Notes under the pieces: model-generated
Databases searched by the model: none
Told to the model about the DNA's origin: nothing
Seen by the model: the letters and a program-made list of their open reading frames with translations, nothing else
Shown: piece after piece, positions 2,514 through 63,220 of the stretch
Numbering within the stretch: position 1 is the stretch's first letter
Layout: each line of letters opens with the position of its first letter
Program-made: the position numbers and the translations under genes
Sequence record: MK373794.1
Length of the DNA stretch: 64,000 bases
Origin: Escherichia phage vB_EcoS_HdK1
Direction: 5' to 3' (one strand)

Positions 2514-2528
2514 ACCATTAGCACGCTA

Positions 2529-27825: not shown

Positions 27826-30800
27826 ATGGCAATTCGTTTACAAGGTATTTTAGTTGATGGATTGAATAAACCAATCGTCAACGCAAACGTGTTCTTACTT
27901 GCACGAAGCAATACTATTGTAGTTCTAGGTGGAAGTAAAGCGGTATTTAAGACTGATTCGCAAGGTGCTTACGACGTCACAGTGAACACCGGCCACTATG
28001 TGGTTATCATTGGGCCAGAAGGTAAGGAACCGTATAAAGCGGGTGACATTGTAATCTATGCGGATAGCCAGAACGGTTCACTTAACGCATATCTTACTAA
28101 ATGGGCTCCAGAAGAAACCACACCTGAAATACTTCAGGGAAATAAAGCAACTGGTGTCTAACTCTGAGCAATTTGCATTGCAGGCGTCTGAATCCGCTGC
28201 TAATGCTAAGAAGAGTGAGCTTAACGCAGAGACAAGTAAAAACTCTGCTGCAACGGATGCAGCGTCAGCTCTGCTGTCAAAACAGGAATCTGCTGCTAGT
28301 GCGTCTTCCGCATTGCAATCCAAGAACGCTGCGGCTGGTTCTGCTACATCAGCTCAACAAGCTCTTACTGCTGTGCAAGGACTCAAGGCTGAAGTCCAGC
28401 AATTAAAAACCGACACGCAGCATATTAAAGAAGAGGGTGTCGCTGAAGTAACAGCTCTCAAGAATGCTGCAACTACTTCGGCCAACAATGCTAAAGCATC
28501 AGAAACTGCATCTGCTAATAATGCGACTTTGGCTGATACTAAAGCAAAGGAAGCGTCTGTAAGTGCAACCACCGCTAATCAAGCGAAAGTAGCTGCTGAG
28601 GCAGCAAAGGCCGCATCCGAAGCAAGTGCAGTTGAGTCCGCTACTTCTGCCGGTAAATCGCAGACCGCAGCTAATGCAGCTAAGGCAAGTGAGACGGTTG
28701 CAACACAGAAGGCAGCTTCGGCGTCTACGTCTGAAACTAATGCGGCAGCTTCCGCTCAGACTGCGACTAACAAAGCTGGTGAGTCCGCCGCTAGTGCTAC
28801 CGCAGCTAAGGCAAGCGAAACTAATGCTAAAACTTCAGAAACTAATGCTGGTACATCAGCTGGAAGATCTGAGTCTGCTGCTTTACGCTCAGAAGCTGCT
28901 GCCCAACGTGCGGAAGACATTGCTGATGCAATTGGTCTTGAAGATGCAACTTTAACTGTTAAAGGTATCGTTCGTCTTAGCAATGATACTAACAGCACTG
29001 CTGAAAACCTGGCAGCTACGCCAAAGGCTGTTAAAACAGTCATGGACGTTGCTAATACTAAAGCTCCGTCAAATAGTCCTGTTCTAACTGGCGTACCAAC
29101 GGCACCAACTCCAGCACCTGAAGTTAATAACAATCAGATTGCCACAACTCAGTTTGTACACCAAATTATAAGCGCACTGATTGGTGATGCACCAGACGCG
29201 TTAAACACTCTGAAAGAGTTAGCTGACGCTCTTGGTGATGATCCGAATTTTGCAACGACGATAACCACACTTATTAACAGTAAGTTGGCTAAAGATCAAA
29301 ATGGTGCTGACATTCCTAATAAGCAACTGTTCATTGATAACGTTGGTCTACGTGAGACTGTCAACTTAGCTCTCGGTGCATTGAAGAAGAACCAAAACGG
29401 TGCAGATATACCGGATAAAGGTGTCTTCCTTAATAACATCAATGCTGCCAGCAAGACGGATATGGCCGCCAAGAAAGGTATGAGATATACTGTGGTCAAT
29501 GCCCCAGCGGGAGTTGAAGCAGGTAAGTTTTATCCTGTTGCGATTCGTCGTTCTTCTGGATTCAGCAGTGAATTAGCATCCAGGGTGACAATAAGTACAG
29601 GTTCAAGAACGGGAAACCATAGGTTGAACAACTGCGAGTTCAATGGTTTTGTTATGACTGGTGGTTGGACTGACAGGGGACGTTATGCTTATGGAATGTT
29701 CCACGCATATACTGCAAATGAACGTGCTATTCATTCCATTCTGATGAGTAATAAAGATGATGATCTGTGCTCTGTGTTCTATGTCGAAGGTGAAGCGTTC
29801 CCTATCTCTGTATATGTAGAAGAAGGTTTATCTGTTGTTGCACCATCTGCCGACTATGTTGTCGGACAAACGACTTACAAATGGGGTGCTACAGACCCTG
29901 GAACAGAATGCGTGGCCGCTGAAACTGTACTTAATTTCTCCAATGGTAGAGGATTCTATAGTTCGCACGCACTCCTCACAAATGCGGATATTAGTGGCAA
30001 TAAAATTTACGCCAACGGTGAAATCGTAGCTCGCGGTGAGAATCAAGTTCGCATGATTGGTGGGGACTACGGTGCGTTATGGCGTAACGACGGTGCCAAG
30101 ACCTATCTCTTATTTACCGCTAAAGGCGATCAATACGGTGGTTGGAACGATTTAAGACCATTTATGATTGATAACGCTACTGGTGAGTTTACCATCGGTA
30201 CTAAATTGAACGCCGGTCAAGGTGTGAATGGTAACGCATCCAGTGCTACTAAGTTACAAACAGCGCGTAAAATTGGTGGCGCCTCATTTGATGGTACTGC
30301 TGACGTCAATCTTCCAGGCGTTAACATTCAGGGTAATCAGAACACAACTGGTAATGCGGCAACTGCCACCAAACTACAGACAGCACGTAGGATTGCCAAT
30401 GTGCCTTTTGATGGTAGTGGCGATATATCGATTCCAGCTAGAAACGTGAATGCGTTTGCGTTAGGTTTGACTCAAATAGTACAAGATCCAGAAGATGGAA
30501 ATCTATCTAATGGTGTACCTTGGAATGCTATAACCGGTGTTTACAGACAACAAGGTATAGGAGCCTCTAATATTGTTGCTCATTTTTGTGATGGTGGTGG
30601 TTCAACACCTTCTTTGCAGATAAGAGCTATGTATAGGAATGGTGGTCTTTGGTATCGTACATCACGTGATGGTTATGGTTTTGAAGAAAACTGGGATCAA
30701 ATTTACACTAAAAAGAACCCGCCTCCGGCTGGCGAAACCTTACCTGTAGGTGTTCCATTACCGTGGCCCACGGATACACCTCCGTCCGGTTATATTGTAA

Positions 30801-31492
30801 TGCAGGGTCAACCCTTCGATAAAGCTGCATACCCGAAACTTGCTGCTGCATACCCGTCGGGTGTACTTCCAGACATGCGTGGTCAAACTATCAAAGGTAA
30901 ACCAGCAAGCGGTCGTGACGTACTTTCTACAGAAGCTGATGGTGTGAAATCACATACTCACACTGCGTCTACTGCATCTGTCGATCTTGGAAGCAAGACA
31001 ACTTCTAGCTTTGATTATGGTACTAAAGGGACAAGTAGTTTCGACTACGGTACTAAGACGAGTAATAATACTGGTGCGCATACACATGGTATTAGCGGAA
31101 CAGCAAATAGTGCAGGTGGGCACCAACACCATAGTTCTGGACCATATGCGAATTCTAGTGATAGTGATCTCTTTCCTAACGGTTATACCCAGGTTTCAGT
31201 CACAAACAAACCAGTTGTACCACGGCAAGGTGGCGCAGGTATGACCCGTGTATCAGGGAAGACATCATCAGATGGAGCACATACCCACTCGTTATCCGGT
31301 AGTGCCGCAAGCGCAGGTGCTCACGCACACACTGTTGGTATTGGTGCTCACACACACTCAGTCGGTATTGGTGCTCATAGTCATACAGTCGCTTTAGGTT
31401 CACACAGCCACGGTGTTACAGTTAACGCAACTGGTAACACGGAAAACACCGTTAAGAACGTTGCATTCAACTATATTGTGAGGGCTGCTTAA
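27826..31492 (+). CDS. Side tail fibre protein, with an apparent frameshift near 28150..28160
   Basis: Track ORFs 27826..28161 and 28058..31492 are contiguous in different frames; Ala/Ser-rich N-terminal region; C-terminus with repeated His-x-His segments ([16 protein letters not shown]..). Confidence 0.75.
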
Positions 31493-34308: not shown

Positions 34309-36282
34309 TTAAGCGGCGTATGCGAGTTTTTCCAGCAATTTTTCCGCTTTAGCTATGTACACTTCGTGGTTGAGATCTGGCGGTAACTGGTCAGTGAGTT
34401 CCATCATAGGTTTACCCCCTGCTGTTTTACCGACACGACCGCCACTCTTGACTATCAATATCTCAGGTACTTCCTCTTTCGTATAGTACCAACGAACGAC
34501 TTTACCTAATGGTTCATTATTCCATGCAGCACCACCATTAGCAGTCTTGATACAAACAAACTTACGAATGTCCTGACACTCTGTGATGGTTTTGGCAATT
34601 GGTGTACCGTCACGAAGAAGGTTAACCACAGCATCCATAATGATCTCGCCTTCCGCGTTCTTAGCTAGACCAGTCTCGGCAAACCAACCTTTACGCTTGG
34701 CTTTACCATCTGCTTTGATTGCAACGTAGTTGTTAACGTTTGCAGAGTTAAGGCGCAGGTACTGGTTCAACTCCATTTCAAAGCCAGTTGTTTCTTCCCA
34801 CCACTTGATGATATCAGTCATTAATTGCTTCTTAGCTTTGCAAGGTTTAATAACAATACCATCCGTGTTAGCACTGACGACCTGAATACCATTAAGCTCC
34901 AGTGTCTCAATGAGCATAAGCAGAGCTAACTGTCCTGTCAGCGTAGTCTGAATAATAAGATGCGGTGCATACAGAATAGAGAACGGTGAACCGAACTTAC
35001 CATAAGAGCCGTTGATAACGATCTTAAGAGTTTGTGCAGTCTTATCGTCATGAGCCATCTTGGCTGCAATACGTCGTTCTACGATCTTAACGAAGATATC
35101 GATAAAGCGCGGGCCCAGGTGTTCAGGATACAGTTGCTGGTTAATGATACAGATCGGGTAGTATGACGTTACGTCAGCATCCCACATCTCTTCATCTTCA
35201 GATGGTACAATCTCCATTAACTCTTCGCAGGAGTGCAGACCACCGATACCCATGTTGTAAGTTGTCTGGTTGATTGTAAACTTCAAAGAGTTCATTGTAG
35301 ATGGTTGCTTAATTTTACCATCTTCTGCGACTCGGAAGTAACTATCAAGCACAACCTGAAATACGGACTTCATTAGTGGCGTTTGGAAACCTAACCACAC
35401 TGGAGGATTGTACCTAAAGGTTCTGCCGACTTCCACCATACCCTTCTGAGGTACGAAGCCCAACATTTCCTTCATTTCGTGACGGATTACAGCTTCTGCA
35501 ATCTGTGCATCTGATTTAGAGCGAAGGTCCACTTTGTACTCTTCACTCATAATCTCACGTAGATGGATCTGCTCTTCCAGTGAGTTAAACAGAGCCATTG
35601 TTGTATCAAGGTCGTTAATACAGTAGAAGCGCACAATAGCAATCTGTTCTACGGATAACGCCCAATGTGGTGGGAATGGTAAGTCCTGGAGCTTCTGCAT
35701 GTGCATACGGCCACCATACAGCTTCAACGAACCGAAGCCAGGAGCTACCTCTTGAACGTCAATGTGGTCAATCCAAAACTGTTTTACACCAAAACTGTTA
35801 AGAATGTCCCACGGAGCCCACTCTTCCTGGATCATCCTGTCACTTGCTTCTTTCAGCTTGTCAACAGTCAGACCAGCAATGGCAAGGAATGTCATCGTAT
35901 TATCGTAGTTTCTTGAGTTGAAACCAACAGTACGAAAGTTCTTCATTATCCATTCATATTTTTCCGTGTCAAGTGTCTGACCGGCAGTCATTTCTAGATA
36001 ATAGACCTTACCAAACTTAACCCCTTTAAACGCCACAAGAAAATAGTTCTTATAACATTCGATATCGTATACGAACGTTTCTTGTGCAAAATACATCTCC
36101 ACTAATTCACCGTCTGTCATACGCGGATCATTAGCTGCAAAACGCATTGCTGCATCAAGACCTGGAAGGTAGTCCGGACGCTCCCATACTCTTTCAACTG
36201 GTTGACGTTTTACTTTCTGTTTCTTCTCTTTCTTAGCGGGAGGTAAATCCTCCCAAAAGAAACCAATAGCATCTTTTCTCAT
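34309..36282 (-). CDS. DNA polymerase (family B-like polymerase motifs, no obvious exonuclease domain)
   Basis: 657 aa; motif-like segments DADVTSYYP, K..INGSYGKFG and VSANTDGI. Confidence 0.7.
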   Translation of the reverse strand: MRKDAIGFFWEDLPPAKKEKKQKVKRQPVERVWERPDYLPGLDAAMRFAANDPRMTDGELVEMYFAQETFVYDIECYKNYFLVAFKGVKFGKVYYLEMTAGQTLDTEKYEWIMKNFRTVGFNSRNYDNTMTFLAIAGLTVDKLKEASDRMIQEEWAPWDILNSFGVKQFWIDHIDVQEVAPGFGSLKLYGGRMHMQKLQDLPFPPHWALSVEQIAIVRFYCINDLDTTMALFNSLEEQIHLREIMSEEYKVDLRSKSDAQIAEAVIRHEMKEMLGFVPQKGMVEVGRTFRYNPPVWLGFQTPLMKSVFQVVLDSYFRVAEDGKIKQPSTMNSLKFTINQTTYNMGIGGLHSCEELMEIVPSEDEEMWDADVTSYYPICIINQQLYPEHLGPRFIDIFVKIVERRIAAKMAHDDKTAQTLKIVINGSYGKFGSPFSILYAPHLIIQTTLTGQLALLMLIETLELNGIQVVSANTDGIVIKPCKAKKQLMTDIIKWWEETTGFEMELNQYLRLNSANVNNYVAIKADGKAKRKGWFAETGLAKNAEGEIIMDAVVNLLRDGTPIAKTITECQDIRKFVCIKTANGGAAWNNEPLGKVVRWYYTKEEVPEILIVKSGGRVGKTAGGKPMMELTDQLPPDLNHEVYIAKAEKLLEKLAYAA

Positions 36283-37271
36283 AGACGAAATCCTACAATT
36301 ACCCCACGTAGATTTTCACCATAAAAAATAATAGGAGTTGAAAGACCCCTTTCGTCCTTGTCATTGAAACGAGAAGCATCCCAATCCGTTGCAAGTCCTT
36401 TCAACTGCATAATAAGATCTATATTATACACGCCAATTGACTTAGATTCACGGAACATTGCACTAGCACCATCCAACTCGTTGTAATGTGTGCGTACAAC
36501 ACCATTTTCCATGTAAATACGCCCATCCCGCTCACAGAACGGTTTTATCTTTTCTAAGCAATTAAAAAGCTCAGTATCAAGCGTATAAACGTTGGACCCC
36601 TTTTCTGTACGTTCAATTATCTTATCAATATTAGGCCACTTTAATTCCAGCAATTGTGTACGCAACCAGCAACCGTCTTCGTAGTGGAATGTCATGCTGG
36701 TATCTGTACACTGAATTCTTACTGGTGGCTTTTTAATACGCAATAATTCTTTGATGGCCATACGTGGCACAACACAATCCACAGGGAATACAGCACCGAA
36801 CCAATATTGTATAATACTAGCGTTGTTGGTCGCGTACATGCTGCCCTGTTTTACCAGCACGCCGCAAGACCACGGGCGGGAAGCATCGTCGCTTATAAAT
36901 GGCGTTACGCGGCTTAAACCGTTGAGAAAAAGCTGACCGTCTATTTCGTGAATTGTTCCTTCTGGCTCTACGTGTGCAGTTGGTTTCTGAAGAGTATCCA
37001 CACTGACCTTAAAGCCACCAGACTTAATGCTCAACTTACCGTTCGCTAACATTGTCATTTGTACAGCTTCGTCACATGCTGCAATAGCCTTCAACATTGG
37101 TTCAGCTTTAGGAGTACAGTCAATATTCAGCGGCACTGGACTACACAATGAAATAGTTCCGTTAAACCCGCGCACAGTACCGTCAACAATACGGAAGTGA
37201 GTTAAACCTTCCTGAAGTTCTTTCTTAGCTACAGAACCCTGAACAAACTTTAAAGCATCAAGTAAATCCAT
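36279..37271 (-). CDS. Possible sliding-clamp-like processivity factor
   Basis: 330 aa, translationally coupled to the polymerase; residue spacing loosely parallels beta-clamp N-terminal conservation. Confidence 0.35.
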   Translation of the reverse strand: MDLLDALKFVQGSVAKKELQEGLTHFRIVDGTVRGFNGTISLCSPVPLNIDCTPKAEPMLKAIAACDEAVQMTMLANGKLSIKSGGFKVSVDTLQKPTAHVEPEGTIHEIDGQLFLNGLSRVTPFISDDASRPWSCGVLVKQGSMYATNNASIIQYWFGAVFPVDCVVPRMAIKELLRIKKPPVRIQCTDTSMTFHYEDGCWLRTQLLELKWPNIDKIIERTEKGSNVYTLDTELFNCLEKIKPFCERDGRIYMENGVVRTHYNELDGASAMFRESKSIGVYNIDLIMQLKGLATDWDASRFNDKDERGLSTPIIFYGENLRGVIVGFRL

Positions 37272-38234
37272 AAGTAACCTTATTCGTCAAATAAATCCTG
37301 GAGGCGTTCGTTGAACTTCCCATTGTGGTTAGCAAGAATCATAGCGTTGACCACACCATACGCCCATAAATTATATGCAGCGCGTGATTCGTATATCGTT
37401 GAAAGTCGTTCGTATGTGAAACCTGACTCCTCTAAGTAGCGGTAGAACGTTATTTTGTTCTATTTCTGAAAGATTACAGATATGTTGTCCTTGATAGTGG
37501 CGTGACGGTGATTTTTCGGATACCTGCATTGGGCCCCACTTTGGAGTTTCAATAGCACCAAACGCCGCAGATTGAATCCAGGAGGATGAGTCACAGGAGT
37601 ACCACGGGTAACGCTCCATAAGCGGACGGGACGTAATACCAAAACCATGTACTTTAATCTTAGCGCGTCCACTACCGTCTACAAGGTGTTTATCCCATAC
37701 CCTGTCCAACCATACCTGGAGTTGTTGTGTACTCGCTCCAACAAGACCACCAAGAGTGATGTATTCATAATTTCGCACATAATGGTCCAGGTATTCAAAA
37801 GGTTCGCCGGCGTGGAAGCATGGTAAAGGTCTTACACCCCTGGCTTCCATCTCTTCCTGGTTGCGCCACGTTTGAAGTGGATCCCCGATACCATCGAGTA
37901 CAGAAGCCATAAGCGAACCATCTTCTACACGAATAATATCTATGTTTCGTTGGATGTAATCACAGTATTCTTTAACCGATAACGTAACTCCCAAAGTGTA
38001 AGCTGAGAACGCCCCGGAGTCGAGGAATATCTTGGCCCCATCGGCACGCATGGCATCAACATAGGATTGTTTTCCAACGTAGTGCCAGGATTCAAGAATG
38101 TTTGGAATATTCTCGACAACACGTTTTTCTTGTTCGTTGAGTTTAACATAGCGGTTCATTCCTGGTTTATAGCTGTTCGTATATACGGCAGCCATATAAA
38201 TCTGAAAGGTATAGTTGATATCTTGTCTGTGCAT
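37265..38234 (-). CDS. dpdA: DpdA-like 7-deazaguanine DNA transglycosylase (TGT-like fold), with an apparent frameshift near 37440
   Basis: TGT-like fold assigned from overall pattern (KIFLDSGAFS, VHGFG); the C-terminus of track ORF 37371..38234 reads as junk, while the alternate frame continues as KITFYRYLEESGFTYERLSTIYESRAAYNLWAYGVVNAMILANHNGKFNERLQDLFDE to a stop at 37265; junction at an AAAA run. Confidence 0.6.
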
Positions 38235-38303
38235 TGTTCACCTAACAAATAAGCGCCCGTAGGCGCTTATTATATTAAAGATAATGTATGATTCGCAAAT
38301 CAG

Positions 38304-38954
38304 TTACTTTTTACACGCTTCAAGAAATTCCCGACGCCATGTGTCACCAGTTACGTCCGGTAATACACCATCACCCAATGCAGTACGTCCGCGGAATGCT
38401 TTAGTGATGGTTGAGCTTCCGCATACCTGTTTAATACCGCGCGACTCCATGCACATATGTTTTGCATCGATGTAGACACACACAGCTTTCGGCTCTAAAT
38501 GGTCACGGATAGCGTCCGCAATTTGATTAGTCAGACGTTCTTGGACTTGCAAACGTCGAGCAAAAGCATCAACCACACGAGATAACTTACTAAGGCCAAC
38601 AATTTTTCCATTCGGGACATACCCGACCACCGCATGACCAATAATAGGAGCCATATGATGCTCACAATGACTGTAGACAGGGATATCACGGACGATGACC
38701 ATTTCATCACAGTTTTCCCCACCATCCTCAAACGTTTTGAACAGGGATGCAATATCGACAGAATAACCCCCGAACCACGTTTCAAATGCTTTAGCGACGC
38801 GCAATGGAGTTTCAACTAGACCTTCACGCAAGTCATCGCCACCTTCAATCAACTTTAAAATCTTTTCGATACTGTGCGAAATTTCTGCTCGGTTTGTCAT
38901 CTTTGTAAATTCATTCATGGTTTGCAGTTTCCTTGTGTGGTCAATTATTTGCAA
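38304..38954 (-). CDS. folE: GTP cyclohydrolase I (FolE)
   Basis: Signature CEHH (..YSHCEHHMAPI..) and flanking conserved segments. Confidence 0.85.
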   Translation of the reverse strand: MQIIDHTRKLQTMNEFTKMTNRAEISHSIEKILKLIEGGDDLREGLVETPLRVAKAFETWFGGYSVDIASLFKTFEDGGENCDEMVIVRDIPVYSHCEHHMAPIIGHAVVGYVPNGKIVGLSKLSRVVDAFARRLQVQERLTNQIADAIRDHLEPKAVCVYIDAKHMCMESRGIKQVCGSSTITKAFRGRTALGDGVLPDVTGDTWRREFLEACKK

Positions 38955-39481
38955 TAGTTAACATGGCATTTAGATGTTTCTTCAATGGTACATTCTACCA
39001 GTTCAACACCATATTGGTCAAGCAGTTGAGGACCAATTACGTCAACCATATATGCAGCTAAGTTTTCCGCAGTTGGGTTGAATGGTAAAGCTACCAAAGA
39101 ATTAAAGAAAGGATCATAATCTTCATCCGTCACTAAATTGTTCTCGCGCGCAAACTTAGTCGATGCAACAACAATGAGCGAATTAATCAGGCTGTCTTGT
39201 TCCCAATGCAGGAACTTATGATCCCAATTATCTTCCAGCCACTGGCAGAGCGTAGTTTTAACCACACTAAAGTCGATAACGCGGCCTACATCGTCCAGGG
39301 ATCCTTCTAAAGCAAATCCACTTACAGACTTAACGTAACCTTCCGACAATGTTTTCTTTGGTGCGACTTTAAAATGGAACTTATAGTTGTGACCATGAAG
39401 ATGGCGACATTTGCTTTCGTGACCTACAACACGATGACCAGCGCAAATCTCGTGTGTGAAACGAATAACAGTGTAACCCAT
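38945..39481 (-). CDS. queD: 6-carboxy-5,6,7,8-tetrahydropterin synthase (QueD)
   Basis: C-x3-H-G-H motif (CRHLHGHNY) characteristic of the QueD family. Confidence 0.7.
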   Translation of the reverse strand: MGYTVIRFTHEICAGHRVVGHESKCRHLHGHNYKFHFKVAPKKTLSEGYVKSVSGFALEGSLDDVGRVIDFSVVKTTLCQWLEDNWDHKFLHWEQDSLINSLIVVASTKFARENNLVTDEDYDPFFNSLVALPFNPTAENLAAYMVDVIGPQLLDQYGVELVECTIEETSKCHVNYCK

Positions 39482-39483
39482 TT

Positions 39484-40900
39484 TTATTCCTCGTTTTCGT
39501 ATTTAATAACTTCTTGTGCGTTATTAATATTAAACGCAGTCCGGCGCATCATGCAAGGGCCACAAGTACCGCAATGCAAATCCCCGTTACGGTAACAGCT
39601 CCAGGTGTGCTCCAACGGGGCCCCTAAACGCAGACCTGTAGCGACAATCTCGTGCTTCATTAAGTTACCTACAGGCATGAGCACTTCAACGCGCTTACCG
39701 TCCCCTACAGCGAACGGTAACACCTGATTAAAGCGATTAATAAACTCAGGTTCGTTGTCCGGATAGGCTCCAGCTTCTTCTAGGTTGTTACCAAGAACAA
39801 TATAGTCGAAACCGTTAGCTTCTGCGTATGCAGTAGCAACAGAAAGCATCACAAGGTTACGAGCTGGAACCCATTCATGCGCGAACTCAGCGCCTTCTTC
39901 ACCGCCCGCAATTGCAGCATCTTGGTCAAATAACGGGCTATCTTTTTTATCGTAAATTGGGATTGGGAATTCAACTAATGGAACTTCCATCACTTCCGCA
40001 ATTTTACGAATAGCCTTCAACTCGTTAGTTTCTGCACGACAACCATACTGGAAGTTAATTAGAGTGACATCTAAACCATTGGACTTACACATTTGAGCTG
40101 CTACTGTGCTGTCCATACCACCACTGGCGACAACTAACGCACGTTGAGTTTGCTTATTTGGAATAAGATCAACTTCATTACATACATCAGTGGATGTGAC
40201 CACATTACATGAATAAGGCTTCAGCATTTGCTTAATAGCGCGTGTTGGTAGCATGTCTTCCTGGCTGGCGAAATACATACCAGTATCAGTCTTACCAATC
40301 CAGATTGGACGATAATTACATGCTGTAAACACACATCCCGGAAAGGAATCATGTGTCGCAAGGATTGCGAAGCTACCTTTTAATTTGCGAACAACTTCAT
40401 GAAACACACTGTACAGGTAATTAAAGTCAGACAAACACATTTCATCTGCTGAAAGTGTACATTCCGCTAACTGTTCAACAATCGCAGCACTATCAATCTT
40501 AGTCTGTAGGGCATAGGTACGAAGGTCTTTATCGTTCGCAATAGTACCGTTATGAACAATAGTCCAACCATCCATATGATACGGTTGCTGGTCCCACTCA
40601 TTCTTGTCAACGACCCACTCTGTAGTCGGTTCAGCGCGAGCGTTACCAATCATTGTGAAGCTACCAATAGCTCCAGCATGAGATACAATGCGCCCAACTT
40701 TAACAAGACGTTCCAGCGATGTTTTCTTACCGACACTAACAATACGTTGCGGGTGCATACTGTGGTCACCATGCGTAAAGCGTACACCAAGACCATCACG
40801 ACCACGGTTGATACTAGCTTTAATAAGATCCTCAATGTCGTTACGGATAATAAGACTTTCAGGTTGACCGTTAGTAATAACACCAAAGATAGAGCACATA
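39484..40900 (-). CDS. queC: Glutamine amidotransferase (class II, N-terminal Cys) fused to 7-cyano-7-deazaguanine synthase (Gat-QueC)
   Basis: MCSIFG N-terminus typical of Ntn amidotransferases (start placed at the Met-Cys preceded by AAGGAAGG); QueC PP-loop SGGMDS and C-terminal Zn cluster C..CGTCGPC. Confidence 0.8.
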
Positions 40901-41647
40901 TTATTTACCTTCCTTAACCATTTCAATTTCACGCTCAACGGATGCAATAATATCGTTGAGGTCTTCCAGTAAGTCTTTATGACCGCGCTCACCCGCACAC
41001 AGCACTTTCTTCAGTGCATGTTGCATGGGCCCACTGGTTACATTGAATGCTTTAATTACGTCGTACACGTCAACCCATACATCAATTTCAATTGGGCTAC
41101 CATTAATGTCATGGGATTCAAAAGTTTTAATTTTGCGCATATATTTATTCGGACGTGGAGCTTTAATCTCCTGGATACAACCCTTGTCGATAAACGTTTC
41201 TTTAATAAATACTTCAGGATTACCTTCTTTGTCACGATCAACGTTAAAGACATTCGTAAGTAGATCGTCCATGATACTGGTTAATTTCTGAGTAGACGTC
41301 GTATGCTTCACGGTATTCACTTCCTCTTCTGCTTTCTGACTTCTTCTGGCAGAAGTATTGATACGCCATTTGTAAAGTGCATTACGTGGAGGCGTTACAT
41401 GCGTGTTGTAGACCGTCTTTAAGTTCATAAGATCGTGTCCATCCATACCTTCAACAAAGACAGTGAGTGCAGGGCAACTATCGTTCAGAACATCCACCAT
41501 ATACCCTTCTCGAATCACAGATGCAAGAGCTGCATGGGACGCAGCCTGAGAAACTGTGGTTACATAATGTTTTACAAATCCGTCTTCATCAAACAGACAC
41601 TGGTTCAACACATTTTCTGGAACGATTTCACCGAGTAAACTGAACAT
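40901..41647 (-). CDS. Hypothetical protein embedded in the 7-deazaguanine cluster
   Basis: 248 aa, tightly packed between the Gat-QueC and QueE genes on the same strand; no motif assigned. Confidence 0.45.
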   Translation of the reverse strand: MFSLLGEIVPENVLNQCLFDEDGFVKHYVTTVSQAASHAALASVIREGYMVDVLNDSCPALTVFVEGMDGHDLMNLKTVYNTHVTPPRNALYKWRINTSARRSQKAEEEVNTVKHTTSTQKLTSIMDDLLTNVFNVDRDKEGNPEVFIKETFIDKGCIQEIKAPRPNKYMRKIKTFESHDINGSPIEIDVWVDVYDVIKAFNVTSGPMQHALKKVLCAGERGHKDLLEDLNDIIASVEREIEMVKEGK

Positions 41648-41720
41648 ACTTATTCATAATAACCTACCTTATTAGTTGAACATACCATGTCTTCTAGCGT
41701 GTGCGTGAGTATGTATAGCT

Positions 41721-42509
41721 TCACTCTACACCTAAATATTTGTGGATCTGCAATTGCACGATGTAATTGTGCTTCATTGCATATTTAACGACAGCTTGAG
41801 CGTTTGCTTTATTAGCATCGTCGTCCTGTTCATCCATAGGTTGAAGATAAATCTTACCTTTAAAGTGTACAGGCGGACGTGCGATAAATGGTGTCGCACG
41901 GTGATCCAGTGCCTGCAACGGTAAACCATCTTCCTCGTTGACGTTTCCGCTTTTCATTACATATTTGAAAGCATCCGCTCGAGCGGAAACGCTAGGGTGA
42001 ACCTTTGCTGCCTTAGGACTACATACTACCACACAGTTATAGTTGAGTTCACGCGGGATAGGCATAGTTCCGTTAGTTTCAACCTGTACGCGATAACCTT
42101 TCATATCAATAAGGTAATTGATAAAATTAGCAACTTCAGGTTGACGGAAAGGTTCTCCGCCAGTAATGACAACTAAGTTAGTCTTGGCTTCACCAGTAAC
42201 ACGGACAATCTCTTGCCAGATGTCACCGTGATTCATCTTCTTACGATTGGACGTGTAGTTTGTATCACATCCTGGGCATTGCAAATTACAACCAGCTAAT
42301 CGAACAAACACGGCAGGTTGACCACAAAACGGGCCTTCGCCTTGAATGGTATGAAAAATGGAATGCACGTCAAGAATACCACGTTCACGAACTAACTTCT
42401 CAGGTTCCTGAGTATTAATAATTTTCATATGATTTCCAAATTTGGCTTGAGCCCAGTGGTGGGCGATAATGGCTTGTGCAAACATTTGAACCTCGGGGTA
42501 AGATAACAA
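41721..42509 (-). CDS. queE: 7-carboxy-7-deazaguanine synthase (QueE, radical SAM)
   Basis: Motif RLAGCNLQCPGCDTNYT matches the QueE Cys-x3-Cys-x2-Cys-type iron-sulfur cluster signature. Confidence 0.8.
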   Translation of the reverse strand: MLSYPEVQMFAQAIIAHHWAQAKFGNHMKIINTQEPEKLVRERGILDVHSIFHTIQGEGPFCGQPAVFVRLAGCNLQCPGCDTNYTSNRKKMNHGDIWQEIVRVTGEAKTNLVVITGGEPFRQPEVANFINYLIDMKGYRVQVETNGTMPIPRELNYNCVVVCSPKAAKVHPSVSARADAFKYVMKSGNVNEEDGLPLQALDHRATPFIARPPVHFKGKIYLQPMDEQDDDANKANAQAVVKYAMKHNYIVQLQIHKYLGVE

Positions 42510-42548
42510 AGGGGCAGTAAATGCCCCTTCTGAGTTTCCGAAGTATCT

Positions 42549-43379
42549 ACAGATTACTCTGCAGTTTTCTGAGACGGAATTTCTACGTTAGCGGCCGCTT
42601 GTGCAATATTAGCAGGTACTGGAACGGATACGCGACCAGTAATGCCCATGTATTTCTTCCAGCGAGCGTATTCCGCTTTAACGTTGGCTTCGTTCAGGCC
42701 TTTGTCCAGTGCAACAGGCCAGAACGTAGCTGATCGGTGCAGTCTGCCCCAGCTCCAGGGTCACAGCGTCAAAGATATCCCATGCAGCACGGCACAGAGT
42801 ACCAACACCAGGCTTGCGAATACCGTTCTGTTCAGGCTCTTTCTTAGCTTCGCGTTCTGCTGCTTTACGAGCACGCTCTTCGTCCTGCAGACGTTTCTTC
42901 TCAGCGCGTTGTGCGTCACGTTTCGCTTTTTCAGCGGCCTTAGTGGCTTCGCGGGCAGCGGATACACGACCTTTAACATCTTTCAGAGTGGATTCAATGG
43001 AGGAAACCAGATCTTCAGATGCTGCAACGGCAGTTTTCAGCTGATCGTTGTCTTTAACTTTACGTGCTGCCGCTTTAACAGCTTTCAGACCTTCTTTAGC
43101 GGTCTTCAGCTGAGCGGTAACTACGCCTTCAACTGCTTTAACTTCGTCCAGCAATGAACCTTCGTTCAGGGTCGCGAACTGTTCTTTAACAGCGGACGTA
43201 GCACCTTCGATCACATTGTAACCGGCAGTGGCTTCGTTCATTGCGGCGTCAACTTTAGCCTGCAATTCACGTGCTGCTTTTTCTTCAGCTTCACGTTTTT
43301 TCTTTGCTTCAGCTTCTTTTGCTGCTTTCTTTGCTGCTTCTTCTGCTTCCAGTTGTTCTGGAGTTTTCTCTTTAGCCAT
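42549..43379 (-). CDS. Lys/Ala/Glu-rich protein (histone-like N-terminus), with an apparent frameshift near 42725
   Basis: Track ORF 42678..43379; an alternate frame continues plausibly (..ALDKGLNEANVKAEYARWKKYMGITGRV..) to a stop near 42549. Confidence 0.4.
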
Positions 43380-43475: not shown

Positions 43476-44199
43476 TTAATTTAAGCCACGTTCTTTTACC
43501 CAGACCCCTAATGTATTACTTGATGTATTACGCTTCACACCTTGTGCCTCTAAACGATCCATCATTTGTTTTCTAAGCTGAAGGATTTCCTTCTTGTCAC
43601 GAGGTTCACCAGCTTCTTTCCACATTTCGTCAGCAACAGCGAAAATAATATCGCGAGTGCCGGCTGTACGCGACGTTGCGGCACGTTTTTCGTTTGCCGG
43701 TGTGCTAGTACCTTGCCGCTCTCTTGTCGGTGTCCATGCCCCTTGTATGCCCATATTTGTTTGTACGGTTGGGCCGTCAATGATGGCGGATTCCAATGAA
43801 CTATCATTCCGTACTTGAATATTAGGCTCCTCCCCCAAATCTGGAACAGAGCTGCCTTCGCGGTACATGCACTCACCCTCTTTATTACTAGCAATTGCCC
43901 AGTCCGCTTGTTCAGCCACATCCGCATCTATTACTGTCTCCGGTATTTCATTTAAAAAGTAATGGATGATCTTACTGATCATTTTCTTTGGATATAAAGC
44001 ACCTTGCTTATTACCCGTTAAGTTGATGTACAAAAGCTGCATTTGCACATCATCAAACTCTTTATACAGTTCTTCAACTTCTAACGGGAAAGAACTACAG
44101 AACTTTCGCTACAGCATAGAATTCCATACTCATGAAGACGTTGAAAGTTTGGATGTTTGGCTAATACCTGCATCCGATCGTAATCAATTAAGACGTACA
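43476..44199 (-). CDS. Hypothetical protein, with an apparent frameshift near 44090
   Basis: Track ORFs 44081..44278 (MYVLIDYDRMQV..) and 43476..44048 join across a frame change. Confidence 0.35.
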
Positions 44200-44201
44200 T
44201 A

Positions 44202-54636: not shown

Positions 54637-57201
54637 ATAACTTAATAACTTCGTTCATTCTCTCAATATCTACCAAATAACACTTCATTCTCGGTGGTGT
54701 AAACTCTGCGCCGAAGAAATTTGAAAAGTCCATTGGCCTCATCTCGGTAAGAACTTCCATAGACATCAAACCATAGATTGTATTGTCTATGACCTGTAGG
54801 ATGTTGTCATTTCTTGTCTGTTTAAAAGCCTTGAACTGGCGACATACTGTGCATAGATCACTCCTTGTGACAATAAATGCGTCCTTAAACATGGGAAACC
54901 GTTTATATACACCAGCTTTAACTTCACCATCCAAGAACTTCTTAATGGAGTTCAGCATTATCTTCTCACGACTTGTACTGTCCGTAGAACCAATCTGCCC
55001 ACTGTTACGCTTCTCTAAGAAACGCTCGTTACCCTGATCGATAAATGACTCAGCCCAACGATAATGTTCCATAGTGACAACAGGACGCTCACTGTTATCT
55101 GCAACAGCAAGAAGAGAAGCTATACGCAATACCTTCAACGCCTTCCTTGTGTACATCTGACGAATTACTTCGTCTTGCACCTGCTCACCATCATTGCCGC
55201 TGTTCAGGAACTTCGCAACAATATTATCAAGATTATCAAACGCTTCGTGTACCTCTGCTTCCATTTCAACATAACACGGAGCAGTCCCTGACATAATACG
55301 CACAGCTTGTTTATAGATAGCTCCAATAGTGCGCAGTATTGCTTCTGGATATTCCAGGAGCATACTCTTATTCATCAATGGGCGGTTAGCTGTACATTCC
55401 CATGCGATAATACGGGACATGAAACCACTCGACATCATGCGGTCATCTACGTTCCCGTAAAATTCATCTGGTGTTGTTTCACCTGCAAAACTATACGCCT
55501 TAACCTTACCGCCAGCAGTCGTATTATCTTTACTAGAGTGCTTTGAACCACCAGAGAAAGCATAGAAATGCCCCTTGTCATAAAGGGAAAGCATTTCATC
55601 CATAATGTCTTTAGCTTTACCGACTTCCATCTTACCGTTACGGAAAAAATGCACCGACTTCAGTCTTATAGTTAATGGATGAGCCACAAGACATAACGGA
55701 CGTATCCATTATGACATCCTTGCGCAATGCAGCATCAGACGCATAGGTACTTGTATCCAAGACACGTTCGATACCAAATATCTGCTGACCGTCTTGACCG
55801 CCATAATTGGATACTTGAGAAAAAAAAGAATAGTTTCAATGTTGGAGCGAAACGCTTCTTTACCAATACCAGAACGTGCAATTAGTACAAAGTAGTTATT
55901 CAAACCACTTCGTGTGACTGTGTTCCACGCCTTACCGCACATACCACTAAATAAAGCAAGCGCAGACAGAATACTAATGTCTTTAATAGGCAACAAGCTC
56001 GCTTTATACATATTACGCGCAACCTCGCCCATAAAGCCCGGAGGCCAAGCCAAACCGTCTGCCTGCTCTTCAGTGTAATTACCATCTGTAGTCAACACTT
56101 CTTCAGGTGGGCGTTCTGGTGTAGTTGCTTGACGTAGTTTTTCCGTGCGCTCTATAGCTGCATTAACGTTATTCTGAACTATCTGCATAAGTCCCATAGA
56201 TTTAACATGGGCATCGTAGCGATAGTTGCGAATCATTCTATCCAGGTGGTACGGACGTTTAATTTTTTCACCAGGCATACGACGGGGAATCATCGTAACG
56301 GCTACTCATTGGTGAATACATGAATAGACGTCTTACCTGGAAATTGTACTTACTCTTAAAGCAAAGAAAGTCAATTAATGCAAATTCTGCTTCAGACTGA
56401 GAAGGGAAACAACGTTCACCGATTAGAAGTATCAACTTCTTCAGCTCTCCAACGACCCTCCCATAGCTGCTTAAACAATGTTCCGTTTTCTTGTTCGCAC
56501 AACTGAATATAGACATCCTGGTCTTCCATTGCATATGGGTCGTTACTAAAATCTTCTTCAGTAAGTTCCAGCATTTGGAAGCCATCAGACTCATTAATCT
56601 CACTCATCTCAGACATAAGTTGGATGAATGAGATTAGCGATATACCCTTCGCTTTCACTGCCTGGAGCACCAGACACAGTGCGCGGGAGTAAAGTAACAT
56701 CCCAGTGATCCCCTGTACAGATAATAAAACGATACTGGGAATACACTTCCACACCGTCACGGCGCTTACCAGCCTGAGGGGATGGAATAAATCCATGTGT
56801 GCAACCCATCACCGCTTCTGGAAATTTCCGTATAGCTATGGAAACGATTCAACAATCTTCTTATATCGCTCACCAGCAACTTTCTTTTCCATTTCAGACA
56901 TGGTATCTTTAATGTCCATGTCGATACAACAGAACGGGTCACTTGGAAGTAGATAGAAACCTAAACGCAAGTTATGACCAATCTCGTTATAATAACGAAC
57001 GCAGCGTTCAGCATCTTCAAAAGACATAAGTAAATGCAGGTTAGACGGTTTCTTATCATTACCGTCTTTACGAAGTGGGACCATATCCCCTAAATCATCG
57101 TCCCATACATAAGGTTGTTTTTCTGATGATGTACCCGGATGGAAACCGCAGACAGCCCACTGTTCGTATTGTTTAATTTCTTGAGGAAAAAGTTCCAGCA
57201 T
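54635..57201 (-). CDS. Putative bifunctional DNA primase-polymerase (AEP-type N-terminal domain plus C-terminal domain), fragmented into at least five ORFs by apparent frameshifts
   Basis: Track ORFs 54635..55687, 55709..56293, 56416..56796 and 56836..57201 plus alternate-frame readings form one continuous coding region; AEP-like motifs CIDMD and RSGDGLH; frame changes at plus-strand A6 (55645..55650) and A8 (55821..55828) runs. Confidence 0.45.
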
Positions 57202-58205: not shown

Positions 58206-58514
58206 TTATTGCTCCATAGCTTGTTTCATCAATGCGTCATAGATACGTTTCGTGCTAGACGCGTTCCACAGTTGTTCGTCTGTCTGAACTTCCTGGTTCC
58301 ATTGCTTGTCCAATAAACCTTCTTCATACGCATCTTTAATACGCTTGCACAAAGTAAGGATGTCTGTTTGAAGAATATCAATTTCTTCTTGAGTTAACGG
58401 AGCATTCTTAAATGGCTCTTTAACTACTGCAATAATTGCTTCATAAATGCTGTATGCAATGCCGCCGCAACAATGTGCCTCCCGCGCAATAGCTTCACCA
58501 ATGTCGTCTGTCAT
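58206..58514 (-). CDS. Hypothetical protein, 102 aa
   Basis: ORF track. Confidence 0.4.
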   Translation of the reverse strand: MTDDIGEAIAREAHCCGGIAYSIYEAIIAVVKEPFKNAPLTQEEIDILQTDILTLCKRIKDAYEEGLLDKQWNQEVQTDEQLWNASSTKRIYDALMKQAMEQ

Positions 58515-58546
58515 TTCACGCGGGATAATAACAGGATCTGCAAGGA

Positions 58547-58756
58547 TTAGATAGAGCGAAGAGCCTGCAACTCTTTCTCCAATTGGTCGATTCGCATATC
58601 ACGATGTCCCAACTCCGCAGCAATAGCACTTTTACTATGCAGTTGTTCGGACGTCATTGCCATAACGTGACGAGAATAAAAACCACCAGCTTTATCTAAT
58701 TCAAAAGCGTCACGCTCTTGATATAAACGCACACATTCTTTACTCATCTTTGCCAC
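58547..58756 (-). CDS. Hypothetical small protein, 69 aa
   Basis: ORF track. Confidence 0.35.
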   Translation of the reverse strand: MAKMSKECVRLYQERDAFELDKAGGFYSRHVMAMTSEQLHSKSAIAAELGHRDMRIDQLEKELQALRSI

Positions 58757-60545: not shown

Positions 60546-61309
60546 CAGCAATATACGAAACGGCGAAGCGAAGTGTATGAAAAATAAGGGAAAATTTCGA
60601 GAGTTGGGAGGTTTGTAGTGATTTATATTATTTATAAAGGGGTCTCGTGGGGTCGTCAGTAGACAACTCAAAAATAAAAAATCTTTATAAAATTTATATA
60701 AATACACACATATACACATTTTTACCTTATTTTTCATGCACTTACCTCCTTTCATTTCGTATATTAAGCGACAATATACGAGCAATATAAGAAATATTTG
60801 TTGCGCAACAACGAGGCGCTCACAAGCTCGCGCACGCGCATAATGCGGGCACGCGGTCTAACACAAAAGAAAATTGAATTGCAAGCGATTTTTGCTGAGG
60901 TAACTCTCGAAGCGAAAGCGATTTGCGAGTTTGAAATTTTGTAGCCCGAAAACGATTCTATTTTATGGTATAAATGTCGGATTTTTCGGTGAAAGGTGGC
61001 TTTTCGGTGAGGTTGGGTGGCTGGGATCGGTGTAACTGGTAGCCCATAAAGCGAAAATAGCCGCGAAAACGGGGCACGCAGCGCGATTAAATGGTTGGAT
61101 CAGTGTAAGGGTGGCGGTGAGGGGGCGAAAATGCCGCAAAATCGCTTACAGGGATGCAGGGAGTGGGCCGCTGTAAGGGCGTATAAGGCGATTAAATTGG
61201 AGTCTATGGTAATGTATGGAAGATGGATTTAGGCTCTTAGAGCGCGAATGGTGGAGCTATGGGTGAGGAATATGTGGTCAGCAGGGTAGCGCGGGAGGTT
61301 ATGCAGGTA

Positions 61310-61352
61310 CAAAAACGAAAGCGCCCCGTTGGACTTCAACAGGGCGCGGATT
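61310..61352 (-). terminator. Second copy of the early-operon terminator (same as 618..660)
   Basis: Within the terminal duplication. Confidence 0.55.
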
Positions 61353-61370
61353 GTATAATGCTTTTAGAAG

Positions 61371-61619
61371 TTATTTACTAGTTAATAATACCGCCCAGGT
61401 ATTATCTGGAAGCGTACCAACTCCGAGTATCTTAAACTGAAGCGACTTGTTCTGCATGTTGTAGTTGTCGAGTAACTCCTGGGCAGCCGCAGCAGCGTTC
61501 GCTTCACCGTTCAGGTTGTAGTCGTTTGCAGTTATTGCACACATACCGAGACCGACCGCTTTGAAGCGCATACCTTTGGATTGAGTCGGTGCAAGTGCTT
61601 TAACATGGATAGCGTTCAT
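61371..61619 (-). CDS. Duplicate of the 679..927 gene (paralog family A)
   Basis: Identical translation in the ORF track. Confidence 0.5.
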   Translation of the reverse strand: MNAIHVKALAPTQSKGMRFKAVGLGMCAITANDYNLNGEANAAAAAQELLDNYNMQNKSLQFKILGVGTLPDNTWAVLLTSK

Positions 61620-61648
61620 ATTATTTATCTCCGTTACAATTTGAAAGG

Positions 61649-61912
61649 TTAGCAGTTTTTTAACAGGTTGATGAAGCCCACCAGCGTGGACGCTGTTGCA
61701 ACCAGGCGGCCCATAGTATGCAGTTCCGCGTAAACTTTACCGTCGTCAAACACAGTTAAATAAACGTTAAGACCATTGCAACGGACGCGATATTTGCGCG
61801 AGTTATTACCAAAAGTTTCCAGCTCTGCGGTGATAGTCGCAAGATTAGCTATACGTTTGCCGATAATGCGGCGAGTGATAGTGGACTGGTTTAATACTGT
61901 AGACATAATCAT
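61649..61912 (-). CDS. Duplicate of the 957..1220 gene (paralog family B)
   Basis: Identical translation in the ORF track. Confidence 0.5.
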   Translation of the reverse strand: MIMSTVLNQSTITRRIIGKRIANLATITAELETFGNNSRKYRVRCNGLNVYLTVFDDGKVYAELHTMGRLVATASTLVGFINLLKNC

Positions 61913-61974
61913 TTCCTCTGTTAACTATGCGAAGTGCATATTATTGCCCACTGTTACTATGGGCAATGTATATG

Positions 61975-62139
61975 TCACTCAGCGGACACATATTCTAACG
62001 CTTCTGATAGTGTAGCGAAGTAACCATCGCTCACCAGATTAATAGCGTACTCAAGTTGATCGCGGGTCAGGTTGCGAAACTTGTTACGGATGTGATAGCA
62101 ACGACCGCGATAAATAACCTGGAAATAGTTGCGTTCCAT
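61975..62139 (-). CDS. Duplicate of the 1283..1447 gene
   Basis: Within the terminal duplication. Confidence 0.4.
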   Translation of the reverse strand: MERNYFQVIYRGRCYHIRNKFRNLTRDQLEYAINLVSDGYFATLSEALEYVSAE

Positions 62140-62149
62140 AATTATCCCC

Positions 62150-62395
62150 TTATGCAACGATGAACGCGTAACCGCTTTGATCCGGGAGTTCACCACCGGA
62201 AAGAATTTCAAACTCAACGCCCGCTTTATCGCTGAACTTTTTGATAAGCTCTTCCGCTGCGGCGCGGTGGTTGCCGTAAACACCAAGATCGTCACGCCAC
62301 GTGATAGTCAAGGAGCCGTTCCAACCTGTTGCTTTTACGCGCGGGTTACGGGTGGCAGTCGGGTTCATGAATTTTGTGATGATAGCTTGAGCCAT
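62150..62395 (-). CDS. Duplicate of the 1458..1703 gene
   Basis: Identical translation in the ORF track. Confidence 0.5.
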   Translation of the reverse strand: MAQAIITKFMNPTATRNPRVKATGWNGSLTITWRDDLGVYGNHRAAAEELIKKFSDKAGVEFEILSGGELPDQSGYAFIVA

Positions 62396-62400
62396 GATAA

Positions 62401-62586
62401 TTACTCCGGTAAAATTACAGTGACGTTAATATTTGCAAGGCGAGCGCACTCGCGGAAACCTTTTACATAAGCATCCATTTCGTCATAGGATGCGAAAGTT
62501 GCGTCCGGGACTGGTCCGTTGTTAATATTCACGCAATATTCGTGTTCGTCCAGGTCAACCCAACAAGTCAGAACGATAGTTTCCAT
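62401..62586 (-). CDS. Duplicate of the 1709..1894 gene
   Basis: Within the terminal duplication. Confidence 0.4.
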   Translation of the reverse strand: METIVLTCWVDLDEHEYCVNINNGPVPDATFASYDEMDAYVKGFRECARLANINVTVILPE

Positions 62587-62664
62587 ATTATTTGCCCTCC
62601 GTATAATACAGACCCGCAACTATTGGAGCTCCGAAAACTAAGAAAGCTAATAAATAGAACATAA

Positions 62665-63144: not shown

Positions 63145-63220
63145 TGTGAATATCTCCATGTTGTTCTAGCGGATTGCTAGTGGGAGCCCACTGTTACAAT
63201 GGGCAACCATTAGCACGCTA

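What the first reader, a model, noticed from the sequence alone, without database searches (positions are those of the whole stretch)
37265..42509. Phage-encoded 7-deazaguanine (archaeosine-type, dG+) DNA hypermodification cluster
Six co-directional, tightly packed genes encode a complete route from GTP to a 7-deazaguanine base plus the enzyme that inserts it into DNA: FolE (CEHH signature), QueD (C-x3-HGH), QueE (radical-SAM CNLQCPGCDT), a class-II glutamine amidotransferase fused to QueC (MCSIFG N-terminus, SGGMDS PP-loop, C-terminal Zn cluster) and a DpdA-like transglycosylase. By established knowledge of phage 9g-like viruses, the Gat-QueC fusion is predicted to convert preQ0 to the amidino derivative G+, and DpdA exchanges genomic guanine for the modified base, protecting the DNA from host restriction. 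The cluster sits next to the DNA polymerase and clamp-like genes.
Basis: partly seen in the sequence, partly recalled or inferred. Interest (0 to 1): 0.85.

Follow-up and report, generated by a model that had tools for sequence, protein, structure and literature searches.

The report
Known phage 9g-type archaeosine DNA-modification cluster

Summary
Window 37280-42485 (minus strand) carries dpdA, folE, queD, gat-queC, an unknown ORF (gp07-like) and queE, next to the clamp and DNA polymerase genes.

The window is essentially a whole Nonagvirus genome. It is 96-98% identical to phage HdSG1, and the cluster is 96% identical in nucleotides to phage 9g gp03-gp08. Proteins are 96-100% identical to those of 9g, the phage in which dG+ DNA was discovered and these genes were tested experimentally.

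Three corrections:
- Only five of the six genes have a known role.
- Published work shows DpdA inserting preQ0. Whether Gat-QueC amidates before or after insertion is still open.
- In this sequence dpdA is broken by one extra C at 37441/37442. Codons 1-264 and 265-317 each translate 100% identical to 9g DpdA, but in different frames.

The break is almost certainly a sequencing or assembly artefact. The window has about 46 frame-shifting indels relative to HdSG1, nearly all +1 homopolymer extensions. They also split the major capsid, tape-measure and primase-helicase genes.

Interest is low.

The parts
37443..38234 (-). dpdA, codons 1-264 (DpdA1-type DNA guanine transglycosylase)
37441..37442 (-). 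Extra C (CGC read as CCGC on the coding strand) that shifts the dpdA frame
   Evidence: This is a +1 insertion relative to 9g, HdSG1 and FritzHoffmann, whose dpdA genes are all 954 nt. It is one of about 46 frame-shifting indels in the window, nearly all homopolymer extensions.
37280..37441 (-). dpdA codons 265-317 plus stop, in the shifted frame
   Evidence: The 53 aa are 100% identical to 9g gp03 residues 265-317, with 3 synonymous differences in 161 nt. The region holds 14 invariant columns among 33 homologues.
38247..38266 (-). Hairpin followed by a T-rich tail between folE and dpdA (terminator-like), preceded by a promoter-like TTGCGA-18-TATAAT at 38298-38269
   Evidence: Read directly from the sequence. 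HdSG1 annotates a terminator at the equivalent place. These are consensus-level matches only.
38304..38918 (-). folE, GTP cyclohydrolase I
   Evidence: PF01227 at 209 bits; TIGR00063 at 193.7, above the cut-off of 181.6. CEHH and HMCM motifs are present. It is 96.6% identical to 9g gp04.
38945..39481 (-). queD, 6-carboxytetrahydropterin synthase
   Evidence: PF01242 at 74 bits. The C-x3-HGH motif is present. It is 98.9% identical to 9g gp05.
39484..40899 (-). gat-queC, class-II glutamine amidotransferase fused to QueC (471 aa from MCSIFG)
   Evidence: PF06508 at 190 bits (residues 286-491 of the 504-aa ORF) and GATase_7 at 29 bits. PHROG 10428 matches at E 2.9e-288. It is 97.7% identical to 9g gp06.
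40901..41647 (-). gp07-like ORF of unknown function; the N-terminus is uncertain because of a +1 indel at 41637
   Evidence: It matches PHROG 18443 (unknown function) and has no Pfam or PDB match. It is 96% identical to 9g gp07. Its position between queE and gat-queC is kept in divergent contigs L006 and L007.
41721..42485 (-). queE, radical-SAM 7-carboxy-7-deazaguanine synthase
   Evidence: Radical_SAM at 42.7 bits. The top five NCBIfam hits are all QueE models, all below their cut-offs. PHROG 2076 matches at E 9.7e-70. It is 99.6% identical to 9g gp08.
42508..42530 (-). Terminator-like hairpin upstream of queE, closing the preceding transcription unit
   Evidence: Found. HdSG1 annotates a terminator at the equivalent place.
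36279..37271 (-). Sliding-clamp-like processivity factor (neighbouring gene, 8 nt after the true dpdA stop)
   Evidence: PHROG 947 at E 4.7e-82, a weak DnaN hit, and 99.1% identity to 9g gp02.
34309..36282 (-). DNA polymerase (neighbouring gene)
   Evidence: Weak B-family polymerase NCBIfam hits; 99.4% identical to 9g gp01.

Best explanation
This is the 9g-type (Nonagvirus) dG+ DNA hypermodification module.

FolE, QueD and QueE convert GTP to 7-carboxy-7-deazaguanine. The QueC half of Gat-QueC converts that to preQ0. DpdA, a TGT-fold transglycosylase, swaps a subset of guanines in duplex phage DNA for the 7-deazaguanine base after replication. The glutamine-amidotransferase half of Gat-QueC supplies ammonia to turn the nitrile into the formamidine of archaeosine. 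About a quarter of the G's end up as dG+, which blocks many type I and type II restriction enzymes.

Shown for the near-identical 9g genes: complementation by folE, queD and queE; dPreQ0 insertion by dpdA alone; dG+ formation by dpdA plus gat-queC; restriction resistance.

Inferred here: the same activities for this phage, from 96-100% protein identity and synteny. Also inferred: the single-base break in dpdA is a sequence error and the real gene is intact.

Not known: whether amidation happens before or after insertion, and what the gp07-like ORF does.
For: - Nucleotide identity to 9g is 96% over 100% of the region, with the same gene order.
- Protein identity to 9g gp01-gp08 is 96.3-100%.
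- Family profiles confirm FolE, QueD, QueC plus GATase, and radical-SAM QueE.
- Both halves of dpdA differ from 9g only by synonymous changes (31 and 3 nt), which shows purifying selection along the whole gene.
- All 120 listed DpdA homologues are 302-322 aa long.
- Frame-shifting indels are genome-wide, sit at homopolymers, and hit essential genes. 13 of 86 distinct HdSG1 CDS are split, including the major capsid, tape-measure and primase-helicase genes.
- Experimental literature on 9g: PMC6884629, PMC10516641, PMC5567051.
- Infection data for Nonagvirus phages: PMC8594841.
Against: - As written, dpdA encodes 264 native residues plus 23 out-of-frame residues. It lacks 53 conserved C-terminal residues. 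If that break were real, insertion might fail.
- DpdA has no Pfam, NCBIfam, PADLOC or PDB-sequence hit, and its model has only moderate confidence (pLDDT 64, pTM 0.65).
- The QueD, QueE and QueC equivalog models score below NCBI's curated cut-offs.
- No chemistry was measured for this particular phage.
Confidence: 0.9

Rival explanations
1. The dpdA frameshift is real. This phage carries a C-terminally truncated or inactive DpdA, makes the base, but inserts little or none of it, so its DNA is unmodified or under-modified.
For: The sequence as given has the extra C, and the ORF stops 30 codons short of the homologues' length. The lost C-terminus is highly conserved, with 14 invariant columns.
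Against: The out-of-frame C-terminal segment is still 100% identical in protein to 9g and has no stop or missense change. The same window has equivalent homopolymer insertions that break the major capsid, tape-measure, tail-fibre and primase-helicase genes, which no viable phage could tolerate together. Every related record has a 954-nt dpdA, and all 120 listed homologues are 302-322 aa.
Confidence: 0.05
2. The cluster serves tRNA rather than DNA. It would boost queuosine or archaeosine in host tRNA during infection.
For: FolE, QueD, QueE and QueC are the tRNA-queuosine precursor pathway. Database annotations call the DpdA homologue 'queuine tRNA-ribosyltransferase'.
Against: 9g dpdA did not complement E. 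coli delta-tgt, and 9g gat-queC did not restore Q in delta-queC. The two together did put dG+ into DNA (PMC6884629). The best structural match is the DNA preQ0 insertase DpdA. The gene sits beside the clamp and the polymerase.
Confidence: 0.02
3. The final product is dPreQ0, as in Seuratvirus, because the Gat domain is inactive in this phage.
For: DpdA alone inserts preQ0. Relatives with plain QueC stop at dPreQ0.
Against: Gat-QueC is full length and 97.7% identical to 9g's. It keeps the N-terminal nucleophile Cys (MCSIFG) and a GATase_7 hit above Pfam's threshold.
Confidence: 0.03

Closest known systems
Enterobacteria phage 9g dG+ cluster, gp03-gp08 (Nonagvirus nv9g; KJ419279 / NC_024146)
   Same: Same six genes in the same order and orientation, next to the same clamp and polymerase. 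Nucleotide identity is 96% and protein identity 96-100%.
   Different: There is one extra C in dpdA (probably an error) and small indels at the gp07 and QueD N-termini. The rest of the genome is closer to HdSG1.
Escherichia phage vB_EcoS_HdSG1 (MK373795, Nonagvirus)
   Same: Collinear over the whole window at 96-98% nucleotide identity, including a roughly 3.3-kb terminal repeat.
   Different: FolE (85% aa) and gp07 (82% aa) are more divergent than against 9g or SE1, which indicates mosaic exchange. HdSG1's genes are not broken by indels.
Seuratvirus phages such as CAjan (dPreQ0 DNA)
   Same: They carry DpdA, FolE, QueD and QueE beside the clamp and polymerase, and belong to the same subfamily, Queuovirinae.
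   Different: CAjan has a plain QueC of 240 aa with no Gat domain, plus a putative preQ0 transporter. Its product is dPreQ0 (32% of G) rather than dG+. Only the C-terminal domain of gp07 is shared, with gp40.
Bacterial Dpd system (DpdA/B/C and others; dPreQ0/dADG restriction-modification island)
   Same: It uses a TGT-fold DpdA that exchanges G in DNA for preQ0. Its crystal structure, 7ui4, is the best structural match.
   Different: Sequence identity is only 16%. No other Dpd proteins were detected (PADLOC gives nothing for DpdA or gp07). The end product and the biological role (phage anti-restriction versus a host system) also differ.
Archaeal Gat-QueC / ArcS / QueF-L archaeosine synthases acting on tRNA
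   Same: The chemistry is the same (preQ0 nitrile to formamidine), and so is the Gat-QueC fusion architecture.
   Different: The substrate context is tRNA position 15 after arcTGT insertion. Here the target is phage DNA, and the order of the steps is unknown.

Membership tests
Phage 9g-type dG+ DNA modification cluster (Nonagvirus) | FolE (GTP cyclohydrolase I) encoded in the cluster | tested here: met
   PF01227 at 209 bits; TIGR00063 at 193.7, above its cut-off of 181.6.
Phage 9g-type dG+ DNA modification cluster (Nonagvirus) | QueD (CPH4 synthase) | tested here: met
   PF01242 at 74.3, above its cut-off of 22.4, and the C-x3-HGH motif is present. The QueD equivalog TIGR03367 scores 63.7, below its cut-off of 89.25. 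The protein is 98.9% identical to the 9g QueD that complemented delta-queD.
Phage 9g-type dG+ DNA modification cluster (Nonagvirus) | QueE (radical-SAM CDG synthase) | tested here: met
   The CxxxCxxC motif is present and Radical_SAM scores 42.7, above its cut-off of 29.5. The five best NCBIfam hits are QueE models, all below their cut-offs. The protein is 99.6% identical to the 9g QueE that complemented delta-queE.
Phage 9g-type dG+ DNA modification cluster (Nonagvirus) | Gat-QueC fusion (Ntn-type glutamine amidotransferase plus QueC) instead of plain QueC | tested here: met
   GATase_7 scores 29.2, above its cut-off of 25; QueC PF06508 scores 190; the N-terminus is MCSIFG; the protein is 471 aa. 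It is 97.7% identical to 9g gp06.
Phage 9g-type dG+ DNA modification cluster (Nonagvirus) | DpdA1 transglycosylase with an intact reading frame | tested here: inconclusive
   Both halves are 100% identical to 9g DpdA but are separated by a +1 insertion at 37441/37442. The genome-wide pattern of homopolymer indels argues for a sequence error. The reads are not available.
Phage 9g-type dG+ DNA modification cluster (Nonagvirus) | dG+ present in virion DNA, with resistance to G-containing restriction sites | not testable with these tools
   This needs LC-MS/MS and restriction digests. It is shown for 9g only.
TGT / DpdA superfamily (for the dpdA product) | Sequence-profile match to the TGT family | tested here: not met
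   There is no Pfam, NCBIfam, PADLOC or PDB-sequence hit, even with a 33-sequence profile. Only PHROGs 887 and 7068, labelled 'queuine tRNA-ribosyltransferase', match.
TGT / DpdA superfamily (for the dpdA product) | TGT-type TIM-barrel fold | tested here: met
TGT / DpdA superfamily (for the dpdA product) | Catalytic Asp pair and the conserved His196 of DpdA | tested here: met
   D72 (LDSGAF), D215 (SCDSSSW) and H196 are invariant in 33 homologues and lie in the window's in-frame part. His196 is named in PMC6884629. Equating D72 and D215 with TGT Asp102 and Asp280 rests on my own knowledge, not on a residue-level superposition.
Bacterial Dpd restriction-modification island | Presence of DpdB, DpdC and the DpdD-K partners | tested here: not met
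   PADLOC finds only a QueC match for Gat-QueC and nothing for DpdA or gp07. The neighbouring genes are phage replication genes.

The most novel reading that the evidence does not exclude
The gp07-like ORF (40901-41647) may be an unrecognised accessory component of the G+ branch. For example, it might couple Gat-QueC to DpdA, which would bear on the open question of whether amidation comes before or after base insertion. It keeps its slot between queE and gat-queC in contigs only 36-42% identical (L006, L007). CAjan, which has plain QueC, shares only its C-terminal domain, in a different slot. Counting against this reading, that C-terminal domain occurs in more than 700 phage genomes, most of them in phage groups not known to carry que genes.
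Probability: 0.08. Interest if true: 0.45.

Novelty: already known. Interest (0 to 1): 0.08.

Why it matters
It matters little beyond annotation. The result confirms that this phage belongs to the dG+-modifying Nonagvirus group. That predicts broad resistance to type I and II restriction enzymes and possibly difficulty with cloning or sequencing its DNA.

The practical lesson concerns sequence quality. The sequence carries many homopolymer indel errors, so apparent pseudogenes in it, dpdA included, should not be read as biology.

Tried and rejected
- DpdA found nothing in Pfam, NCBIfam, PADLOC or PDB-sequence searches, whether as a single sequence or as a 33-sequence profile. Family placement had to come from PHROGs, structure prediction and near-identity to 9g.
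- gp07 has no Pfam hit at E up to 5 across 25 homologues and no PDB sequence hit. Its AF2 model is poor (pTM 0.38) and Foldseek found nothing with E at or below 0.001. Its function stays unknown. From memory I suspected a DUF3310-like domain, but no tool supported that, so I dropped it.
- An exact-sequence look-up of the window's Gat-QueC found no public contig, so the source assembly and its reads could not be traced.
- I considered that the dpdA frameshift was a real pseudogenisation or a programmed frameshift. I rejected this because of the genome-wide homopolymer indels in essential genes and the perfect conservation of the downstream frame.
- Promoter and terminator scans were no richer than shuffled sequence, so the operon structure is only suggested.
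- The two copies of the terminal repeat are 100% identical, so they give no internal estimate of the error rate.
Full report
**Anatomy**

Between 37280 and 42485 the minus strand carries six consecutive ORFs:
- dpdA, read as a 287-aa ORF at 37371-38234
- folE, 38304-38918
- queD, 38945-39481
- gat-queC, 39484-40899, starting at MCSIFG
- an unknown gp07-like ORF, 40901-41647
- queE, 41721-42485

A clamp-like gene (36279-37271) and a DNA polymerase gene (34309-36282) follow on the same strand. GC skew changes sign near 34 kb, which fits the switch to minus-strand genes.

**Family tests**

Pfam and NCBIfam confirm four families:
- FolE: 209 bits, and TIGR00063 is above its curated cut-off.
- QueD: PTPS at 74 bits.
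- Gat-QueC: QueC at 190 bits with a class-II GATase domain (GATase_7 above Pfam's threshold).
- QueE: radical SAM, and the five best NCBIfam hits are all QueE models, though each is below its cut-off.

PHROGs agrees for all of these.

DpdA is the exception. Pfam, NCBIfam, PADLOC and PDB-sequence searches give nothing, even with a 33-sequence profile. Only PHROG 887, labelled 'queuine tRNA-ribosyltransferase', matches (E 6.5e-87).

I therefore modelled a full-length homologue (P0001, 317 aa, 97% identical) with AlphaFold2. Confidence was moderate: pLDDT 64, pTM 0.65, with a good core at residues 60-215.
- Foldseek's five best PDB matches are all tRNA-guanine transglycosylases.
- Bacterial TGT (12.3), archaeosine TGT (12.1), QTRT2 (10.9) and Cap10 (10.4) follow.
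- Generic TIM barrels all score 9.0 or less.

D72, H196 and D215 are invariant among the homologues.

**Identity of the locus**

The 5.2-kb region is 96% identical over its full length to Enterobacteria phage 9g and JenK1, and 90-94% identical to about a dozen other Nonagvirus phages. Gene order is the same as 9g gp01-gp08. The whole window is collinear with phage HdSG1 at 96-98%. Its first 3,308 bases are repeated exactly at its end, which matches HdSG1's terminal repeat. Protein identities to 9g are as follows:

| Protein | Identity to 9g |
|---|---|
| DpdA | 100% (both parts) |
| QueE | 99.6% |
| QueD | 98.9% |
| Gat-QueC | 97.7% |
| FolE | 96.6% |
| gp07 | 96.3% |
| clamp | 99.1% |
| polymerase | 99.4% |

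**What is known about this system**

Phage 9g is where dG+ in DNA was first found.
- Hutinet et al. 2019 (PMC6884629) showed that 9g folE, queD and queE complement the E. coli mutants. dpdA alone puts dPreQ0 into plasmid DNA. dpdA plus gat-queC gives dG+ at up to about 18% of G, even in a delta-queC host, and only that combination confers EcoRI resistance. [quoted passage not shown]
- The 2023 NAR paper (PMC10516641) places 9g DpdA in subfamily DpdA1 and gives 25% replacement of G in the virion.
- Tsai et al. 2017 (PMC5567051) found that 71% of more than 200 type II enzymes displayed resistance on 9g DNA.
- The BASEL study (PMC8594841) reports that Nonagvirus and Seuratvirus phages resist type I and II restriction-modification systems in vivo but are sensitive to type III.

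**The dpdA frameshift**

Compared with 9g, HdSG1 and FritzHoffmann, whose dpdA genes are all 954 nt, the window has one extra C at 37441/37442: CGC is read as CCGC on the coding strand.
- Codons 1-264 translate 100% identical to 9g DpdA, despite 31 nucleotide differences.
- Codons 265-317 sit in the neighbouring frame. They are also 100% identical and end at the normal stop, 8 nt before the clamp start.
- All 120 listed homologues are 302-322 aa.
- The lost C-terminus contains 14 invariant positions.

Is the break biological? I translated all annotated HdSG1 CDS and aligned them to the window. 13 of 86 distinct genes are split between frames. They include the major capsid protein, the tape-measure protein (twice), the side tail fibre, a lysin-like protein, an AAA ATPase and the primase-helicase (several times). 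The nucleotide alignment gives about 46 net frame-shifting indels. In the central coding stretch from 13.4 to 57 kb, nearly all of them are +1 insertions in the window that lengthen a homopolymer. A phage with all of these lesions could not be viable. The pattern is that of homopolymer sequencing or assembly error. I conclude, at about 95% confidence, that dpdA is intact in the real phage.

**The sixth gene**

The gp07-like ORF has no Pfam, PDB or fold match. Full-length homologues fall into two groups: Nonagvirus (79-95% identical) and a second group at 35-42%. In two contigs of that second group the gene still sits between queE and a 468-469-aa QueC fusion. CAjan gp40 shares only the C-terminal ~80 residues (49% identity) and lies elsewhere in its cluster. 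That C-terminal domain occurs in more than 700 phage records, most of them in phage groups not known to carry que genes. A role in the pathway is possible but unsupported.

**Transcription**

A hairpin with a T-rich tail lies between folE and dpdA (38247-38266), preceded by a promoter-like site. Another terminator-like hairpin lies upstream of queE (42508-42530). HdSG1 annotates terminators at both places. This suggests two units, queE-to-folE and dpdA-clamp-polymerase. However, the scans find no more sites than in shuffled sequence.

**Verdict**

Novelty: already known. Interest is low.

Noticed in passing
whole window; e.g. 6642, 13462, 14038, 14786, 15074, 15754, 19349, 20222, 21384, 28137, 37441, 42719, 44088, 48447, 55644-56842: The window has about 46 net frame-shifting indels relative to HdSG1, nearly all +1 homopolymer extensions. 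They split 13 of 86 distinct reference CDS, including the major capsid, tape-measure, tail-fibre and primase-helicase genes. This is the signature of sequencing or assembly error, so apparent pseudogenes in this window are unreliable.
   Followed up: yes
1-3308 and 60693-64000: The two ends of the window are 100% identical over 3,308 bases, which leaves a unique length of 60,692. This matches HdSG1's annotated ~3.3-kb terminal repeat, but it could also be a wrap-around of a circular assembly.
   Followed up: partly
40901-41647 (-); L006 6001-6681; L007 1681-2325; L008 6014-6583: The gp07-like ORF of unknown function keeps its place between queE and gat-queC in contigs only 36-42% identical. 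Its C-terminal ~80-aa domain (NKYxRKIKT...DVYDVI...QHALKKVLCAGxRGHKD...) is shared with CAjan gp40 and with more than 700 other phage genomes.
   Followed up: partly
42557-43379 (-) and 43479-44200 (-): The two genes upstream of queE, homologues of 9g gp09 and gp10 (both of unknown function), are each broken by homopolymer insertions: +1 at 42719 and +2 at 44088.
   Followed up: partly
34712-34785 (+): ARAGORN calls a tRNA-Ala(TGC) that lies antisense inside the DNA polymerase gene. It is probably a false positive.
   Followed up: no
29885-31489 (+): The tail-fibre / receptor-binding ORF is only 62% identical in protein to its HdSG1 counterpart, while the flanking genes are 97-100% identical. 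This is the usual hypervariable host-range locus.
   Followed up: no
38304-38918 and 40901-41647: The cluster is mosaic. FolE is 85% identical to HdSG1 but 96.6% to 9g. gp07 is 82% identical to HdSG1 but 99.6% to Salmonella phage SE1. This suggests recombination among Nonagvirus phages.
   Followed up: partly
3330-3958 and 58400-58735: These stretches have no megablast match in HdSG1, and HdSG1_00008 has no counterpart in the window. They are small accessory-gene differences next to the terminal repeat.
   Followed up: no
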